64,000 nt of DNA from Escherichia phage slur02: the sequence record NC_028927.1; one strand, given 5' to 3'. The translations under genes and the position numbers were made by a program. A model generated the notes under the pieces. It was not told where the DNA came from. It was given only the letters and a program-made list of their open reading frames with translations, and searched no databases. Shown here one piece after another: positions 1-42,696 of the stretch; the stretch's first letter is position 1, and each line of letters begins with the position of its first letter.

Positions 1-137
1 AAAGATGTGAAAAAGATTCCTACTGTCGATTTTGACCCACGCATCAAGGCGATAAACCATGGAAGCATGTATATAATAATAGCCAACACACCTGAAACTA
101 AAACCATAAAAATTGAACCTGCTACTAAAGTTTCCAT
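1..137 (-). CDS. imm: superinfection-immunity (Imm)-like small membrane protein; N-terminal part only, gene runs off the window
   Basis: ATG at 135-137 with GAGGA RBS; N-terminus METLVAGSIFMVLVSGVLAIIIYMLPWFIALMRG is a TM helix plus LPWxIAxxR-type motif; sits beside gene 43 as imm does in T4. Confidence 0.45.
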   Translation of the reverse strand, partial: METLVAGSIFMVLVSGVLAIIIYMLPWFIALMRGSKSTVGIFFTS

Positions 138-144
138 GTTTTCC

Positions 145-525
145 TCACTTAGTCAAATTTTTTACACATGAATTATAAGAATTCACTACATACTCCATCG
201 GAGCATTTTTACCAGTACGCCATTGGTAATTATTAGCCCAATTAGCCCAAAGCTCGGCGCAGTAGTTTTCAATTTTTTCTTCGCGTGTAATTACATCCGA
301 ATTACGATATGCTTGAGCAGATTCATCTGGACGAATAGCTTCGTCAAAATTCGCCTGCATTTGTTCTACTGTTTGCTTTGGAGCTTCTTTATAACACTTG
401 ACATTAGGATTATAAAATTTGCTTGAACAGTTTACAATTTTTCCTACATCAGACTGATTTACTACCGGTCCTTGAGCTACACAACCAGTAAGACCTAATG
501 CAATAACCAAAATAGCGATTTTCAT
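145..525 (-). CDS. predicted lipoprotein (lipobox LTGC), function unknown
   Basis: 126-aa ORF; N-terminal MKIAILVIALGLTGC signal/lipobox; 4 further Cys. Confidence 0.6.
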   Translation of the reverse strand: MKIAILVIALGLTGCVAQGPVVNQSDVGKIVNCSSKFYNPNVKCYKEAPKQTVEQMQANFDEAIRPDESAQAYRNSDVITREEKIENYCAELWANWANNYQWRTGKNAPMEYVVNSYNSCVKNLTK

Positions 526-535
526 AATAATTTCC

Positions 536-772
536 TCAAATGCAAGTAGTAATTACTCCAGTAGTGCTTATGCAGGTATTACCCATTTGCACACCTAAAG
601 ATCCATTGGTATTCACATGAAGATTATCATCAATTTTAACTGATATTTTACCATTAGTGTGAATAACGGTGCTAGATTCAATCACAGGTTGAGTATCATT
701 TTCAACACTAACAAATGGAACTGCTGCTAATGCAACTAAACAAACTGCTAAGCATCCCATAACAATTTTCAT
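536..772 (-). CDS. small secreted protein with signal peptide, function unknown
   Basis: ORF 536-784; likely true start ATG at 770-772 (MKIVMGCLAVCLVALAAVPFVS) with GGAG RBS; directly downstream of an early promoter. Confidence 0.5.
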   Translation of the reverse strand: MKIVMGCLAVCLVALAAVPFVSVENDTQPVIESSTVIHTNGKISVKIDDNLHVNTNGSLGVQMGNTCISTTGVITTCI

Positions 773-799
773 TTTATTCTCCAAATCTGTATTAGTTGA

Positions 800-845
800 T
801 AGTTGTATAGTACCATGGAAGAACAGTCTTGTAAACAGTTTTGTG
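800..845 (-). promoter_or_regulatory. T4-type early promoter with conserved leader
   Basis: minus strand: A-rich upstream, GTTTAC (831-836), 17-18 bp spacer, TGGTACTATACAACTATCA extended -10. Confidence 0.6.
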
Positions 846-918
846 AAATTTTTTTAGGGAATCCAAAGGGTCCAGAATCATCTGTTTTTCATAAGTATAG
901 ATTTATATTACTTGTATG

Positions 919-939
919 AAAAAGGGACCCGGAGGTCCC
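919..939 (-). terminator. rho-independent terminator after gene 43
   Basis: minus strand GGGACC-UCCG-GGUCCC hairpin followed by UUUUU. Confidence 0.6.
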
Positions 940-952
940 TAGATTTATTCTA

Positions 953-3649
953 TCAGCCAAACAGGAAGTCTAACGAAGCTTTTTCTTCATAGTCCATACC
1001 AGCCGATTCACACATGCCCGCAAGCGGTTTAACAAACGATTTTTGGAACAAAGTTGAGTAGTCAATCCAAGACAGTACGTCAGAACGAATTTCTTTTGGA
1101 AGTTCTGTTCCCGACGGCCAAGCAATGCACTTGTCACCAAATGGATTTCCTTCACGCAATGGAAGAACCATTACCTTATTTCCATCCAAAATTGGAGCTA
1201 CACCTAAACCGCTAACAGCTCGACGATAAGTTAGCACACCACGAATATGGAACGGACATTTAAATCCTGGCCAACCTTTATCATCATATTTCGCTATATC
1301 GTTCGCAGTTTTTACTTCAGCAATAACTTTATAGTCAAGCTGACGATATTCTTTCTCGAAGTTTTTGTAATATTCTTGGACAGACTCTTCACCTTCCTGA
1401 AGAATACGACGAATACTTTCTTCGAGAGCTTCTTGCACTGCTTTTGGTGTTGAACTCTGCTGAGTTTCCATACCCATGATTTTTAGATGTGGTTCAGCAA
1501 ATCGCTTATCTTCCATATCATAAACGTTCAGAGCATAACGCTTTTTCGCTTTCCAAAATCCGCCAACGCCCTTTGAACCAAGTGGAGGGCAAGAAATAGC
1601 TTCACGGTCCATATGCATCAGATGCTCGCGGTTATTCATATAATCACATAACTCACGATATGCAACATCAATCATAGGTTCCATCTTTTTCTTACCGAAC
1701 TGATTCATGAATTCAACTAAATCATTTTGTTCTTTAAAGCGGTCAAGACCAACTTTTTCAATAACTTTATCTACGCAAACATATACCGAATCAGTATCAC
1801 CTGCCGCGATGAAATCTTCACCATTAGTTCCGCATACTTTATTCAGATATTCATTAATTTTACGAGCAATCCACTGAATACCAACTTGGCCGAAAATTGT
1901 GATAGCAGTAGCATTTCGCAAATCATAGTAACGGAAATGAATATTACCAAGAGCACCATAAAGACTGTTAATGAGAATTTTACGGTTCAGCTGATTTGTG
2001 TTAGCAAGTGTAGCTGCTTTTTCACATTCTTCAATCAGACTATTGAGAACAGATTCAGTATAATTCGATAGTTCATTTAAGAAATCATCACTGAACTTAA
2101 CATATCGTTCAACTTCTGGTTTAGTTGAACAGGACCCTGCGCCTTTCATAATAATCTTTTTAATAGCTTCGGCATTCATTTCTTCAGCGAACATTTTCTT
2201 TTTCCAATCTTTACGCTGGAAAAATACTTTAGCGATTTCCTTTGGAATGATACCTTCTTGATGCTTGTCATACATCCATCCATTCGGAGAACAAGAATAT
2301 TCATCACTCGGTTTAGGAGCTGTTCCTGCGATATATTCATGAATTGGATGAACTTTAAACTGCCCACGAATAGTCTCAGGACTAATGTTAACCTGACGAA
2401 TAATGCTCGGATACAGAGACGTCAAGTCAAAACTCATAATATATCGACGAGCAATTGGTTTAGGTTCAAACACAAATGCACCCGGAAAACTCTGTTTAAC
2501 GTGCGAACCTTGTTGAGGAATAACCTTATGTTCACTTTTCAGTGAGTTAAAAATAATAGCATCCCAAGTTTTAATAGGACTCATTACACCAGAAAAAGGC
2601 ATTTTAGCATAATAAGACATACTTAAAACTAGATCGATAAACCCACGAATTTTATCAATCGCTTGAACTGATTCTACGTCAATGATGTTATAACTAATGT
2701 ATCGTTGATGATTAGTCTCACGAAGTTTATTAATAGGACCGTCGTATGGTAATTTACCTTTTTTGGTTTCATGTTGAGCAACTGATTCCAAAGAGAATGA
2801 CGGCAAATTAGTAAATGCGAATTTCTTATACAAATCTAAATAATCAAGAATAGATACGCCATCAATAGAATAAATTTCTTTGCTGCCGTACATATTTTGA
2901 ATTAGTTTAGATTTTACTCGACCGATTGGAGAGAAGCGTTTCATACTGCGTTCACCGAGAATCATTTTAACACGATTCATAATATACGGAACGTCAAATC
3001 CCTCAATATTCCAACCAGTAAAAATAGCAGGTCGTTTCTGTTCCCAGAGATTGATATATTCCATGAGCATATCACGCTCATTATCGAATGGCATATAAAT
3101 TACTCGGTCAAGAATTTCTTGAGGAACTTCATCACCACCTTCACAGTCAAGCTTAGCAGCTAACTTTGCATCCCATTTTGATACTGAACCGTACATTGAA
3201 TTCAAAAGGTCGAAAACATAAAAACGATCATCAATTGAATCATAATGAGTGATAGCATCAATTTCATATTCTGCTTTCATTGGGTCAGGAAATTTATCGC
3301 CAGTAACCTCAATGTCACAGTTAGCTACACGAACAAATTTTCGGTCATAAACAATTTCTGAACCGTATGTATCACTGATATAAGCGAGTTTAAAATCGTT
3401 CATACCGAGAGCTTCGAGACCGATGTCTTCCATTCGTTTCATCCAATCTCGAGCATCTTTCATTGATGGAAATTTTTGAGGAGCGCAGTTTTTACCATAG
3501 ATGTCTTTGTACTTTGACTCTTCCTTACAATGCCTAAACATAGTTGGAAGATATTCTACTTCACGAGTACGTTCCTTTCCGTTTTCATCAATATAACGTT
3601 CAACAATGTTATTTCCGACTGTTTCGATAGAGATATAAAATTCTTTCAT
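953..3649 (-). CDS. 43: DNA polymerase (family B), gp43
   Basis: 898-aa ORF, near-identical to T4 gp43 as recalled (MKEFYISIETVGNNIVERY...); exonuclease and polymerase motifs. Confidence 0.97.
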   Translation of the reverse strand: MKEFYISIETVGNNIVERYIDENGKERTREVEYLPTMFRHCKEESKYKDIYGKNCAPQKFPSMKDARDWMKRMEDIGLEALGMNDFKLAYISDTYGSEIVYDRKFVRVANCDIEVTGDKFPDPMKAEYEIDAITHYDSIDDRFYVFDLLNSMYGSVSKWDAKLAAKLDCEGGDEVPQEILDRVIYMPFDNERDMLMEYINLWEQKRPAIFTGWNIEGFDVPYIMNRVKMILGERSMKRFSPIGRVKSKLIQNMYGSKEIYSIDGVSILDYLDLYKKFAFTNLPSFSLESVAQHETKKGKLPYDGPINKLRETNHQRYISYNIIDVESVQAIDKIRGFIDLVLSMSYYAKMPFSGVMSPIKTWDAIIFNSLKSEHKVIPQQGSHVKQSFPGAFVFEPKPIARRYIMSFDLTSLYPSIIRQVNISPETIRGQFKVHPIHEYIAGTAPKPSDEYSCSPNGWMYDKHQEGIIPKEIAKVFFQRKDWKKKMFAEEMNAEAIKKIIMKGAGSCSTKPEVERYVKFSDDFLNELSNYTESVLNSLIEECEKAATLANTNQLNRKILINSLYGALGNIHFRYYDLRNATAITIFGQVGIQWIARKINEYLNKVCGTNGEDFIAAGDTDSVYVCVDKVIEKVGLDRFKEQNDLVEFMNQFGKKKMEPMIDVAYRELCDYMNNREHLMHMDREAISCPPLGSKGVGGFWKAKKRYALNVYDMEDKRFAEPHLKIMGMETQQSSTPKAVQEALEESIRRILQEGEESVQEYYKNFEKEYRQLDYKVIAEVKTANDIAKYDDKGWPGFKCPFHIRGVLTYRRAVSGLGVAPILDGNKVMVLPLREGNPFGDKCIAWPSGTELPKEIRSDVLSWIDYSTLFQKSFVKPLAGMCESAGMDYEEKASLDFLFG

Positions 3650-14847: not shown

Positions 14848-14884
14848 TTAATAATACCACGGTTTGAACCTGTTGTAAACAACT
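14848..14884 (-). promoter_or_regulatory. T4-type early promoter
   Basis: GTTTAC (14875-14880), spacer, GTGGTATTATT -10. Confidence 0.55.
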
Positions 14885-14961
14885 TTGTGAAAAATATTTT
14901 AGGGAATGATAAGAAAGGAACGATAGCTTAGAATGGTAATATACAGAATGTGAGAAAGAAA

Positions 14962-25476: not shown

Positions 25477-25499
25477 TTTCTGTTCCTCCGTAGTTGATA

Positions 25500-25540
25500 G
25501 TTGTATAGTACCACAGAGGAACAGTCTTGTAAACCACTAA
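25500..25540 (-). promoter_or_regulatory. T4-type early promoter with conserved leader
   Basis: GTTTAC (25529-25534), GGTACTATACAACTATCAACT, then GGAGG RBS. Confidence 0.6.
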
Positions 25541-26909: not shown

Positions 26910-26939
26910 TTTATTCTCCAAATCCGTATCAGTTGATAG

Positions 26940-26980
26940 TTGTATAGTACCATAAAGCTTTATGCTTGTAAACAACTTTG
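26940..26980 (-). promoter_or_regulatory. T4-type early promoter with conserved leader
   Basis: GTTTAC (26968-26973), GGTACTATACAACTATCAACTGATAC, leader near-identical to the 800-845 copy. Confidence 0.6.
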
Positions 26981-26995
26981 TGAAAAATTTTTGAA

Positions 26996-42497: not shown

Positions 42498-42535
42498 TTC
42501 ATTCTCCAAGTTGTTTTCTGTATCAGTAGTTGATA

Positions 42536-42575
42536 GTTGTATAGTACCATGGAAGGGCAAGGATGTAAACCGTTT
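42536..42575 (-). promoter_or_regulatory. T4-type early promoter with conserved leader
   Basis: GTTTAC (42565-42570), ATGGTACTATACAACTATCAACTACTGATACAGA. Confidence 0.6.
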
Positions 42576-42696
42576 TGTGAAAAAATTTTTAAAAAGTTTT
42601 GGGGAATTCTAGGGCAGGAAGGGGAAATCAAAGGATAGGATAATATATTATAAAGGGTAGAAACTAAATGATGTCTAGAGAGGCCTGGAAAGGCCT

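What the first reader, a model, noticed from the sequence alone, without database searches (positions are those of the whole stretch)
145..850. Early-promoter-driven lipoprotein and secreted small protein between imm and gene 43
Immediately upstream of the Imm-like gene are a 126-aa lipoprotein (lipobox LTGC) and a ~78-aa signal-peptide protein, under a strong early promoter at 800-845. I recall at most one small ORF here in T4. Envelope-targeted early proteins beside imm are good candidates for superinfection exclusion or receptor masking, analogous to T5 Llp or T4 Imm/Sp.
Basis: inference. Interest (0 to 1): 0.5.

Follow-up and report, generated by a model that had tools for sequence, protein, structure and literature searches.

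The report
T4 imm.1 lipoprotein plus accessory ORF
The two small genes are real: one is this phage's copy of T4's uncharacterised early lipoprotein gene imm.1, which sits next to the superinfection-immunity gene imm in every T4-like genus sampled, and the other is a common accessory gene in a variable slot; both were already annotated and neither has a known function.

Summary
The window matches Escherichia phage slur04 (a Tequatrovirus) at 100% over bases 1-960. On the minus strand, after the gene 43 terminator, an early-type promoter (835..807) precedes three closely spaced genes: a 78-aa ORF (772..536), a 126-aa ORF (525..145) and imm (137..).

**The 126-aa ORF.** It is the orthologue of T4 Imm.1 (one substitution plus one extra C-terminal residue; Pfam DUF5481, phrog_1754). 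It has a canonical lipobox (LTGC, Cys15, Val at +2).
- T4 Imm.1 was classed as early at RNA and protein level.
- Knocking it down gave no fitness defect.
- I found no paper on its function.
- New here: phrog_1754 lipoprotein genes are adjacent to imm in all eight T4-like genera sampled. They lie upstream in six and downstream in two. In Mosigvirus the pair is relocated next to spackle.
- Imm.1 is nearly identical in T2, T4 and T6. That argues against Llp-like receptor masking and for a post-adsorption role alongside Imm. This is inference only.

**The 78-aa ORF.** It belongs to phrog_4189 and is a real, faster-evolving gene (dN/dS about 0.14-0.57, with one pair at 0). It has a 21-residue N-terminal hydrophobic segment and no valid lipobox. 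It occurs in 324 phage records. The slot is empty in T4 and T6 and holds an unrelated ORF in T2.

Interest is moderate to low.

The parts
918..940 (-). Intrinsic terminator after gene 43 (stem-loop 940..923 followed by a T-run)
   Evidence: 7-bp stem with 5 G-C pairs, 4-nt loop, TTTTT tail. Conserved in T4. Annotated as a terminator in DalCa and other records.
807..836 (-). Early-type sigma-70 promoter: (G)TTTACA, 17-nt spacer, TACTAT, with TG upstream of the -10 hexamer
   Evidence: Site found. Almost unchanged in T4. The same extended sequence recurs at window 26910-26992, 42517-42582 and 25491-25534. T4 imm.1 is classed as early RNA and early protein. The consensus scan alone is not above chance.
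779..782 (-). Shine-Dalgarno GGAG, 6 nt upstream of the ATG of the 78-aa ORF
   Evidence: Read directly from the sequence. The TTG at 784 overlaps this site, so the ATG at 772 is the likely start.
536..772 (-). 78-aa ORF (slur04 gp023, phrog_4189): N-terminal hydrophobic segment (residues 3-23) followed by a roughly 55-residue domain, predicted beta-rich at low confidence, ending in the Cys67/Cys77 pair
   Evidence: Present in 324 phage records, one copy each. dN/dS about 0.14-0.57 (one pair 0). The AF2 model has low confidence (pLDDT 52.9).
145..525 (-). imm.1 orthologue (slur04 gp022; Pfam DUF5481, phrog_1754): 126-aa prolipoprotein with signal peptide residues 1-14, lipobox LTGC, lipid-attachment Cys15 and Val at +2. 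Conserved features are YNPNVKxY, AQAYRxSD and the Cys89-Cys120 helical hairpin.
   Evidence: One substitution (T13A) and one extra C-terminal Lys relative to T4 NP_049661. DUF5481 scores 239 bits against a cut-off of 27.
1..137 (-). 5' part of imm (superinfection immunity protein, PF14373). It starts 7 nt after the imm.1 stop and runs off the window.

Best explanation
**Shown.** Bases 145-850 are the front of one early transcription unit on the minus strand: promoter, 78-aa ORF, imm.1, imm. The genes are 7-10 nt apart with no convincing terminator between them. The 126-aa product is slur04's Imm.1. It is a prolipoprotein whose lipobox is present in all but two family members examined. Its mature part has a poorly modelled N-terminal half carrying the invariant YNP..K.Y motif. 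Its C-terminal half is a confidently modelled helical hairpin containing the two invariant cysteines. The T4 orthologue is made early and is dispensable for growth in the laboratory.

**Inferred from established lipoprotein rules.** After Lgt/LspA processing, the absence of Asp at +2 sends the protein by the Lol pathway to the periplasmic face of the outer membrane. The paired cysteines fit an oxidising periplasmic location.

**Inferred from gene neighbourhood.** Lipoprotein genes of this family stay beside imm in all eight T4-like genera sampled, whatever their order or genome position. In Mosigvirus they also lie beside spackle. Imm.1 is therefore most likely the outer-membrane-side component of the T-even superinfection-immunity apparatus. 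It would act after adsorption on the incoming phage's envelope penetration or DNA delivery, together with inner-membrane Imm and periplasmic Spackle. It would not act by masking a receptor.

**The 78-aa ORF.** It is a real accessory gene. It encodes either a signal-anchored inner-membrane protein or a secreted protein, with a roughly 55-residue periplasmic domain. It sits in a polymorphic slot, and its link to immunity is only positional.
For: **Identity and anatomy**
- The window matches slur04 at 100%.
- Imm.1 differs from T4 by one substitution and one C-terminal residue; the 78-aa ORF is a clean indel relative to T4.
- DUF5481 scores 239 bits; phrog_1754 E = 5e-44.
- The PS51257 lipobox rule is met, with Cys15 and Val at +2.
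- The lipobox is present in all members examined except P0018 and P0022; Y38, C89 and C120 are invariant across 12 diverse members.
- The AF2 helical hairpin has pLDDT about 93.

**Expression**
- Promoter evidence.
- T4 imm.1 is classed as early RNA and early protein (PMC9697503 supplements).
- CRISPRi-ART knockdown of T4 imm.1 was scored 'Not Fit' (score -0.77, p 0.98) (PMC11879866 supplement).

**Linkage to imm**
- Tequatrovirus.
- Divergent metagenomic relatives at 29-41% identity.
- Mosigvirus, where the pair is relocated as dmd, DUF7279, imm.1, imm, spackle.
- Gelderland-, Jiaoda-, Moon- and Muldoonvirus, upstream of imm; Dhaka- and Gaprivervirus, downstream of imm. All fall in phrog_1754 with E between 1e-15 and 1e-52 and all have a lipobox.

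**Against receptor specificity**
- Imm.1 is nearly identical in T2, T4 and T6.

**The 78-aa ORF is real**
-.
Against: - There is no experimental evidence for any function of Imm.1. I found no paper addressing it.
- From memory of Lu and Henning 1989 (not retrievable here), plasmid-borne imm alone excludes T4, and disrupting imm abolishes immunity. If so, Imm.1 is neither sufficient nor strictly required.
- Imm homologues in non-T4-like phages have no phrog_1754 neighbour.
- Two family members (P0018, P0022) have no lipobox Cys; P0018 has an AHA|S-type site instead, so lipid anchoring is not universal.
- Neighbourhood conservation inside a largely syntenic phage group is weaker evidence than it looks. 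The two order changes and one relocation are the informative events.
- No fold or sequence similarity to any characterised protein was found.
- For the 78-aa ORF, the slot is empty in T4 and T6 and holds an unrelated cytoplasmic-looking ORF in T2.
Confidence: 0.4

Rival explanations
1. Receptor masking. Imm.1 or the 78-aa protein would bind and block the phage's outer-membrane receptor, as T5 Llp does with FhuA or Cor does in T1/phi80. This would prevent adsorption of superinfecting phage, or loss of progeny on cell debris.
For: Imm.1 is a predicted outer-membrane lipoprotein made early, like Llp. One distant homologue (PS2) gives a weak match to the Cor PHROG, but only over its signal peptide.
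Against: Imm.1 is nearly identical in T2, T4, T6 and slur04. It is at least 95% identical across about 500 Tequatrovirus records from Escherichia, Shigella, Yersinia, Salmonella and Citrobacter hosts. From textbook knowledge, T2, T4 and T6 use different receptors and superinfecting T-even phages still adsorb to infected cells. There is no sequence similarity to Llp or Cor.
Confidence: 0.07
2. Imm.1 is an envelope-maintenance factor rather than an exclusion factor. It would stabilise the outer membrane or peptidoglycan of the infected cell. Examples are protection against lysis from without, against the phage's own gp5 or gp e lysozymes, or during lysis inhibition. It would travel with imm and sp only because all three serve envelope integrity.
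For: The predicted periplasmic location, early expression and dispensability for growth fit. It clusters with sp in Mosigvirus. From published knowledge, Spackle is a lysozyme inhibitor.
Against: There is no similarity to known lysozyme inhibitors or to peptidoglycan-binding domains. This rival overlaps heavily with the best explanation and cannot be separated from it by sequence.
Confidence: 0.2
3. Imm.1 targets a host periplasmic or outer-membrane protein for a purpose unrelated to Imm, such as counter-defence or host takeover. Possible targets include a nuclease, a protease, Tol-Pal or Lpp, or vesiculation. Adjacency to imm would simply reflect inherited synteny of early accessory genes.
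For: The family is confined to T4-like phages: six representatives among 1.8 billion proteins. It is highly conserved within a genus, as expected for a binder of a conserved host protein. Imm occurs without it in other phage groups.
Against: The pair stays together through an order inversion (Dhaka- and Gaprivervirus) and a relocation (Mosigvirus), while surrounding genes differ. PADLOC gave only one weak match for Imm.1 (RT_UG34, E 0.0044, 14 bits), which I disregard.
Confidence: 0.15
4. The 78-aa ORF has nothing to do with imm. It would be a small accessory gene picked up in a hyperplastic slot just downstream of a strong early promoter, with an independent and unknown envelope function.
For: The slot has three states: the 78-aa ORF in 324 records, the unrelated ORF phrog_18567 in T2-type phages (31 records at 95% identity or more), and empty in T4 and T6. 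The 78-aa ORF evolves much faster than its neighbours, and its dS is also higher, which suggests a separate history. The indel is bounded by an 8-bp repeat, ATGAAAAT.
Against: It is exported or membrane-anchored and co-transcribed with imm.1 and imm. It was found at this position in all loci examined, one copy per genome.
Confidence: 0.5

Closest known systems
T4 Imm.1 (NP_049661, UniProt P18057; Pfam DUF5481; phrog_1754)
   Same: The 126-aa ORF is this gene. It differs by one substitution (LTGC versus LAGC in the lipobox) and one extra C-terminal Lys. It has the same position directly upstream of imm and the same promoter and ribosome-binding context.
   Different: Nothing of substance differs. 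The family itself has no assigned function. RefSeq's name 'iduronate sulfatase' is not supported by any domain match.
T4 Imm and Spackle (Sp, gp61.3), the two known T-even superinfection-exclusion proteins
   Same: All are small, early, envelope-located proteins that are dispensable for growth. Imm.1 is co-transcribed with imm. In Mosigvirus its homologue is contiguous with both imm and sp.
   Different: There is no sequence relationship: neither ORF matches PF14373 or PF25676. Imm is a polytopic inner-membrane protein and Sp is a soluble periplasmic lysozyme inhibitor. Imm.1 is predicted to be lipid-anchored to the outer membrane. No exclusion phenotype is known for it.
T5 Llp and the Cor proteins of T1, phi80 and N15 (phage lipoproteins that block FhuA)
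   Same: These are small phage-encoded outer-membrane lipoproteins with disulfide bonds, made early and acting in the periplasm.
   Different: There is no sequence similarity. Llp and Cor are receptor-specific, whereas Imm.1 is nearly invariant across phages with different receptors.
phrog_4189 (hypothetical small proteins of Tequatrovirus)
   Same: The 78-aa ORF is a full-length member (E = 4e-30). There are 14 clusters at 90% identity and 324 phage records.
   Different: No function is assigned. Some members carry 7-residue duplications in the hydrophobic segment. In the HY01 type this creates a formal lipobox, LAAC, which slur04 lacks.

Membership tests
Pfam DUF5481 / T4 Imm.1 | Match to the family profile above the curated cut-off | tested here: met
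   239.2 bits against a cut-off of 27, covering profile positions 1-103 of 103. phrog_1754 E = 5e-44.
Pfam DUF5481 / T4 Imm.1 | Orthologous position: immediately upstream of imm, between genes 43 and 42 | tested here: met
   Alignment with T4 and the annotations of T4 and slur04.
Bacterial lipoprotein (Lgt/LspA substrate; PROSITE PS51257) | Lipobox pattern with Cys at residues 15-35 and a K/R within the first 7 residues | tested here: met
   126-aa ORF: ILVIALGLTGC, Cys15, Lys2. The lipobox is present in all family members examined except P0018 and P0022.
Bacterial lipoprotein (Lgt/LspA substrate; PROSITE PS51257) | Actual lipidation, cleavage by signal peptidase II and outer-membrane sorting | not testable with these tools
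   This needs palmitate labelling, globomycin treatment and membrane fractionation. Val at +2 only predicts Lol export.
Bacterial lipoprotein, applied to the 78-aa ORF | Lipobox pattern with Cys at residues 15-35 | tested here: not met
   Only VMGC (Cys7) and LAVC (Cys11) are present. Both lie too near the N-terminus, and LAVC has Val at -1. The HY01-type variant P0011 meets the rule, by my reading of the aligned sequence, only because of a 7-residue duplication.
Sec signal peptide or signal anchor, applied to the 78-aa ORF | Positive N-region, hydrophobic core, and small residues at -3 and -1 of a cleavage site | tested here: inconclusive
   Lys2, a 21-residue hydrophobic stretch and one ALA|A site after residue 16. 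The stretch is long enough to be an uncleaved transmembrane anchor. AF2 models residues 3-16 as a helix at low confidence. SignalP was not available.
T5 Llp / Cor receptor-blocking lipoproteins | Sequence membership in the Llp or Cor family | tested here: not met
   No Pfam or PHROG match to Llp or Cor for either ORF.
T5 Llp / Cor receptor-blocking lipoproteins | Binds and inactivates the phage's own receptor | not testable with these tools
   Indirect evidence is against it: near-identity of Imm.1 across T2, T4 and T6.
T4 Imm (PF14373) and Spackle (PF25676) | Profile match | tested here: not met
   Neither ORF matches either family. The neighbouring gene does match PF14373.
Superinfection-exclusion system (functional class) | Expression reduces infection or DNA entry by a second phage | not testable with these tools
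   Only gene-neighbourhood evidence is available.

The most novel reading that the evidence does not exclude
Imm.1 (phrog_1754) is an overlooked third component of T-even superinfection immunity. It would be an outer-membrane lipoprotein that cooperates with inner-membrane Imm, and with periplasmic Spackle, to derail genome delivery by an incoming phage across the periplasm. That would explain why the pair has stayed together through rearrangements in all eight T4-like genera sampled, and it would give a handle on the still-unknown mechanism of Imm.
Probability: 0.3. Interest if true: 0.6.

Novelty: new member of a known kind. Interest (0 to 1): 0.35.

Why it matters
How T4 Imm stops DNA entry has been unresolved for decades. 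It is usually discussed as a one-protein effect, with Spackle as a separate factor. A lipoprotein gene that stays coupled to imm across the T4-like phages points to a specific candidate partner on the outer-membrane side. The candidate can be tested cheaply with deletion mutants, plasmid expression and pull-downs. If the test is negative, Imm.1 remains one of many conserved early T4 genes of unknown function, and the 78-aa ORF remains an ordinary accessory gene in a plastic slot.

Tried and rejected
- **Literature.** Searches for Imm.1 or DUF5481 function found nothing relevant. The Miller 2003 T4 genome review is not held.
- **Structure of the 78-aa ORF.** The AF2 model is unusable (pLDDT 52.9), so I ran no fold search on it.
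- **Sequence libraries.** PDB profile searches gave nothing significant. PADLOC gave one weak match for Imm.1 (RT_UG34, E 0.0044), which I disregard, and none for the 78-aa ORF. NCBIfam gave nothing significant, and Rfam found nothing in bases 1-1200.
- **Homologue searches.** The exhaustive protein search found only six 50%-identity representatives of Imm.1. The word-index searches found 8 and 14 clusters.
- **Distant homology.** A profile-profile comparison of mature Imm.1-type against the longer Moon/KP1/QL01-type lipoproteins was inconclusive: 42.7% probability over 28 columns. Pfam DUF5481 does not catch the longer type. Their relationship therefore rests on the shared PHROG profile.
- **Related loci.** The search for related loci failed on the broad alignment. 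With the narrow alignment it returned only 7 IMG/VR loci, which I did not use further.
- **Ideas rejected.**
  - The 82-aa TTG start, because it overlaps the ribosome-binding site.
  - A lipobox in the 78-aa ORF.
  - The weak terminator-like site at 736..723 inside the 78-aa ORF (5-bp stem, poor T-tail).
  - The antisense plus-strand ORFs 7..171 and 223..426, which are mechanical by-products.

Full report
**1. What is there**

Window bases 1-960 are 100% identical to Escherichia phage slur04 (Tequatrovirus), and 513 phage records match in near mode. On the minus strand the order is as follows:

| Feature | Coordinates (minus strand) |
|---|---|
| Gene 43 (DNA polymerase) | 3649..953 |
| Intrinsic terminator | 940..923 plus T-run |
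| Promoter-like site TTTACA-17-TACTAT, with TG | 835..807 |
| GGAG ribosome-binding site | 782..779 |
| 78-aa ORF | 772..536 |
| 126-aa ORF | 525..145 |
| imm | from 137, running off the window |

- The genes are 10 and 7 nt apart, and each stop codon overlaps the next ribosome-binding site. They therefore form one transcription unit.
- The 82-aa form listed mechanically starts at a TTG inside the Shine-Dalgarno sequence, so I discount it.
- No Rfam family matches bases 1-1200.

**2. The 126-aa ORF is T4 imm.1**

T4 (NC_000866) carries imm.1 (NP_049661, 125 aa) at the same place. Its product differs from the window's only by LAGC versus LTGC in the lipobox and one extra C-terminal Lys, which a 1-nt indel causes.

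- It matches Pfam DUF5481 at 239 bits (cut-off 27) and phrog_1754, both of unknown function.
- It satisfies the PROSITE lipoprotein rule: ILVIALGLTGC, Cys15, Lys2.
- Residue +2 is Val. By the established +2 rule for Enterobacteriaceae, that predicts Lol export to the outer membrane.
- The other four cysteines (33/44 and 89/120) fit a periplasmic, disulfide-bonded protein.
- AlphaFold2 on a 7-sequence alignment gives mean pLDDT 69.9. Only a C-terminal helical hairpin that contains Cys89 and Cys120 is confident, at about 93.
- Profile searches of PDB sequences and NCBIfam find nothing significant, and PADLOC gives only one weak match that I disregard.

**3. Expression and dispensability, taken from T4 literature supplements**

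- T4 imm.1 is listed as 'early' for both RNA and protein in the time-resolved omics study (PMC9697503, supplement files 4 and 6).
- In the CRISPRi-ART screen its knockdown is scored 'Not Fit' (score -0.77, p 0.98), and its function is recorded as unknown (PMC11879866, supplement files 8 and 15).
- I found no paper on Imm.1 function.

**4. The promoter**

The consensus scan is not above chance (4 sites found, 4.6 expected). Three observations support the site anyway:
- The promoter and leader sequence is almost unchanged in T4.
- The same extended sequence (TTTTTCACAAA..GTTTACA...ATGGTACTATACAACTATCAACTA) recurs at window 26910-26992, 42517-42582 and 25491-25534. This is the behaviour expected of T4 early promoters.
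- It agrees with the early expression data in section 3.

**5. Distribution and linkage of Imm.1**

tblastn finds Imm.1 in 655 phage records. About 500 are Tequatrovirus at 95% identity or more, and 155 are Mosigvirus at about 33%. An exhaustive HMMER scan of 1.8 billion representative proteins finds only six representatives. The family is therefore confined to T4-like phages.

Every context I examined places the gene next to imm:
- **Tequatrovirus:**
- **Two divergent metagenomic relatives** (29-41% identity).
- **Mosigvirus:** the pair has moved to the gene 41-61 region and reads dmd, DUF7279, imm.1 homologue, imm, spackle. Pfam assignments are and the context.

Imm itself occurs in 1014 phage records. 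In genera where Pfam DUF5481 finds nothing, a lipoprotein gene of 146-167 aa still sits beside imm:
- **Upstream of imm:** Gelderlandvirus, Jiaodavirus, Moonvirus and Muldoonvirus.
- **Downstream of imm:** Dhakavirus and Gaprivervirus.

All of these satisfy the lipobox rule. All match phrog_1754 over its full length, with E between 1e-15 and 1e-52. In a 12-sequence alignment, Tyr38, Cys89 and Cys120 are invariant and the lipobox is nearly so. A direct profile-profile comparison of the mature parts is inconclusive (42.7% probability). The homology claim therefore rests on the PHROG profile and the shared architecture.

In three non-T4-like phages that have Imm homologues, no such lipoprotein is adjacent.

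**6. What this implies for Imm.1**

The pair has survived one relocation and one inversion of gene order. It sits next to spackle in Mosigvirus. That is the strongest available evidence that Imm.1 works with Imm.

- Imm.1 is nearly identical in T2, T6 and slur04, and differs from T4 only at one residue and by one C-terminal residue. From textbook knowledge these phages use different outer-membrane receptors, and superinfecting T-even phages still adsorb. An Llp-like receptor block is therefore unlikely.
- My preferred model is an outer-membrane-anchored periplasmic partner of the Imm/Sp immunity apparatus, acting after adsorption. I put this at about 0.4.
- Against it, from memory of Lu and Henning 1989, imm alone on a plasmid excludes T4, and imm disruption abolishes immunity. 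Imm.1 would then be at most an auxiliary factor.

**7. The 78-aa ORF**

It belongs to phrog_4189, of unknown function. There are 14 clusters at 90% identity and 324 phage records, one copy each, from Escherichia, Shigella, Yersinia and related hosts.

*It is a real gene.*
- dN/dS is about 0.14-0.57 (one pair 0), and the indels seen are in frame.
- It evolves much faster than imm.1 and imm in the same genomes, which show dN/dS of 0-0.15. Its dS is also higher.

*Export signals.*
- The N-terminus has Lys2, a 21-residue hydrophobic run, then acidic residues, with one ALA|A candidate cleavage site.
- It could be a cleaved signal peptide or an N-in/C-out anchor. The hydrophobic run varies by 7-residue tandem duplications.
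- There is no valid lipobox in slur04. The HY01-type variant gains one, LAAC, through a duplication; that is my reading of the aligned sequence.
- The remaining 55 or so residues are predicted beta-rich and end in a Cys67/Cys77 pair, but the model is poor (pLDDT 52.9).

*The slot is plastic.*
- T4 and T6 lack the ORF through a clean indel of about 247 bp bounded by the 8-bp repeat ATGAAAAT.
- T2, RB27, RB51 and others carry instead an unrelated 83-aa ORF without export signals (phrog_18567; 31 records at 95% identity or more). Its Dhakavirus homologues lie at coordinates far from the imm region.
- Its position beside imm is therefore weak evidence of function.

**8. Verdict**

- Envelope targeting and early expression hold.
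- The 'extra' gene relative to T4 is the 78-aa ORF, not the lipoprotein.
- The exclusion hypothesis gains real comparative support for Imm.1 but none beyond position for the 78-aa ORF.
- The receptor-masking analogy is unlikely.

Both genes were already annotated, as hypothetical or as imm.1, in the records examined. The value added here is the conserved imm / phrog_1754 pairing, which turns an old uncharacterised T4 ORF into a specific, testable candidate partner of Imm.

Noticed in passing
window 773-782 / 526-535 (the slot between the early promoter and imm.1); L030 1480-1731; L031 2511-2691: The slot is polymorphic in Tequatrovirus. It holds the 78-aa ORF in 324 records and an unrelated, non-exported 83-aa ORF (phrog_18567) in T2, RB27, RB51 and others (31 records at 95% identity or more). 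It is empty in T4 and T6. The T4-type deletion is bounded by the 8-bp repeat ATGAAAAT.
   Followed up: partly
L003 2222-3530 (Mosigvirus vB_Eco_NicPhage): The imm.1 homologue, imm and spackle are contiguous and are preceded by dmd and a DUF7279 gene. This is in the gene 41-61 region rather than next to gene 43.
   Followed up: partly
L001 4637-5014 (T4 imm.1); also the T2 and RB3 RefSeq records: RefSeq names imm.1 'iduronate sulfatase'. The 125-aa protein has no sulfatase domain; it matches only DUF5481. The name looks like a propagated misannotation.
   Followed up: partly
window 700-760 (N-terminal coding part of the 78-aa ORF); P0005, P0011, P0012; L011 926-1183: The hydrophobic segment of the 78-aa protein varies between phages by in-frame 7-residue (21-nt) tandem duplications. 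In the HY01 type this creates a formal lipobox, LAAC, and UniRef labels that variant 'Lipoprotein'.
   Followed up: partly
window 26910-26992, 42517-42582, 25491-25534, 14873-14907: Copies (82-93% identical) of the extended promoter and leader sequence found upstream of the 78-aa ORF. The copy at 26910-26992 even shares the GGAGAATAAAATGAA ribosome-binding site and start context.
   Followed up: partly
L013 1740-1883 (Gaprivervirus TH55): A 47-aa very hydrophobic ORF (phrog_3610, unknown function) lies between imm and the downstream phrog_1754 lipoprotein gene.
   Followed up: no
L019 395-799 (Serratia phage PS2_049) and L020 1181-1474 (Shigella siphovirus Sf11 gp20): Other small proteins with signal-peptide-like N-termini lie close upstream of imm homologues. 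PS2_049 matches no PHROG. Sf11 gp20 is phrog_2315, not phrog_1754.
   Followed up: partly
L002 1153-1995 versus L001 1571-3456: Downstream of gene 42, slur04 carries a gene annotated beta-glucosyl-HMC-alpha-glucosyltransferase, where T4 has beta-gt and segA. T6 carries a gene with the same annotation (ggt) at this position. slur04 therefore resembles T6 rather than T4 here.
   Followed up: no
L012 709-1546 (Shigella phage CT01): The 78-aa ORF and imm.1 are annotated as differently framed or fused ORFs, and the tblastn match covers only residues 28-64. This suggests frameshifts or sequencing errors in that record.
   Followed up: no
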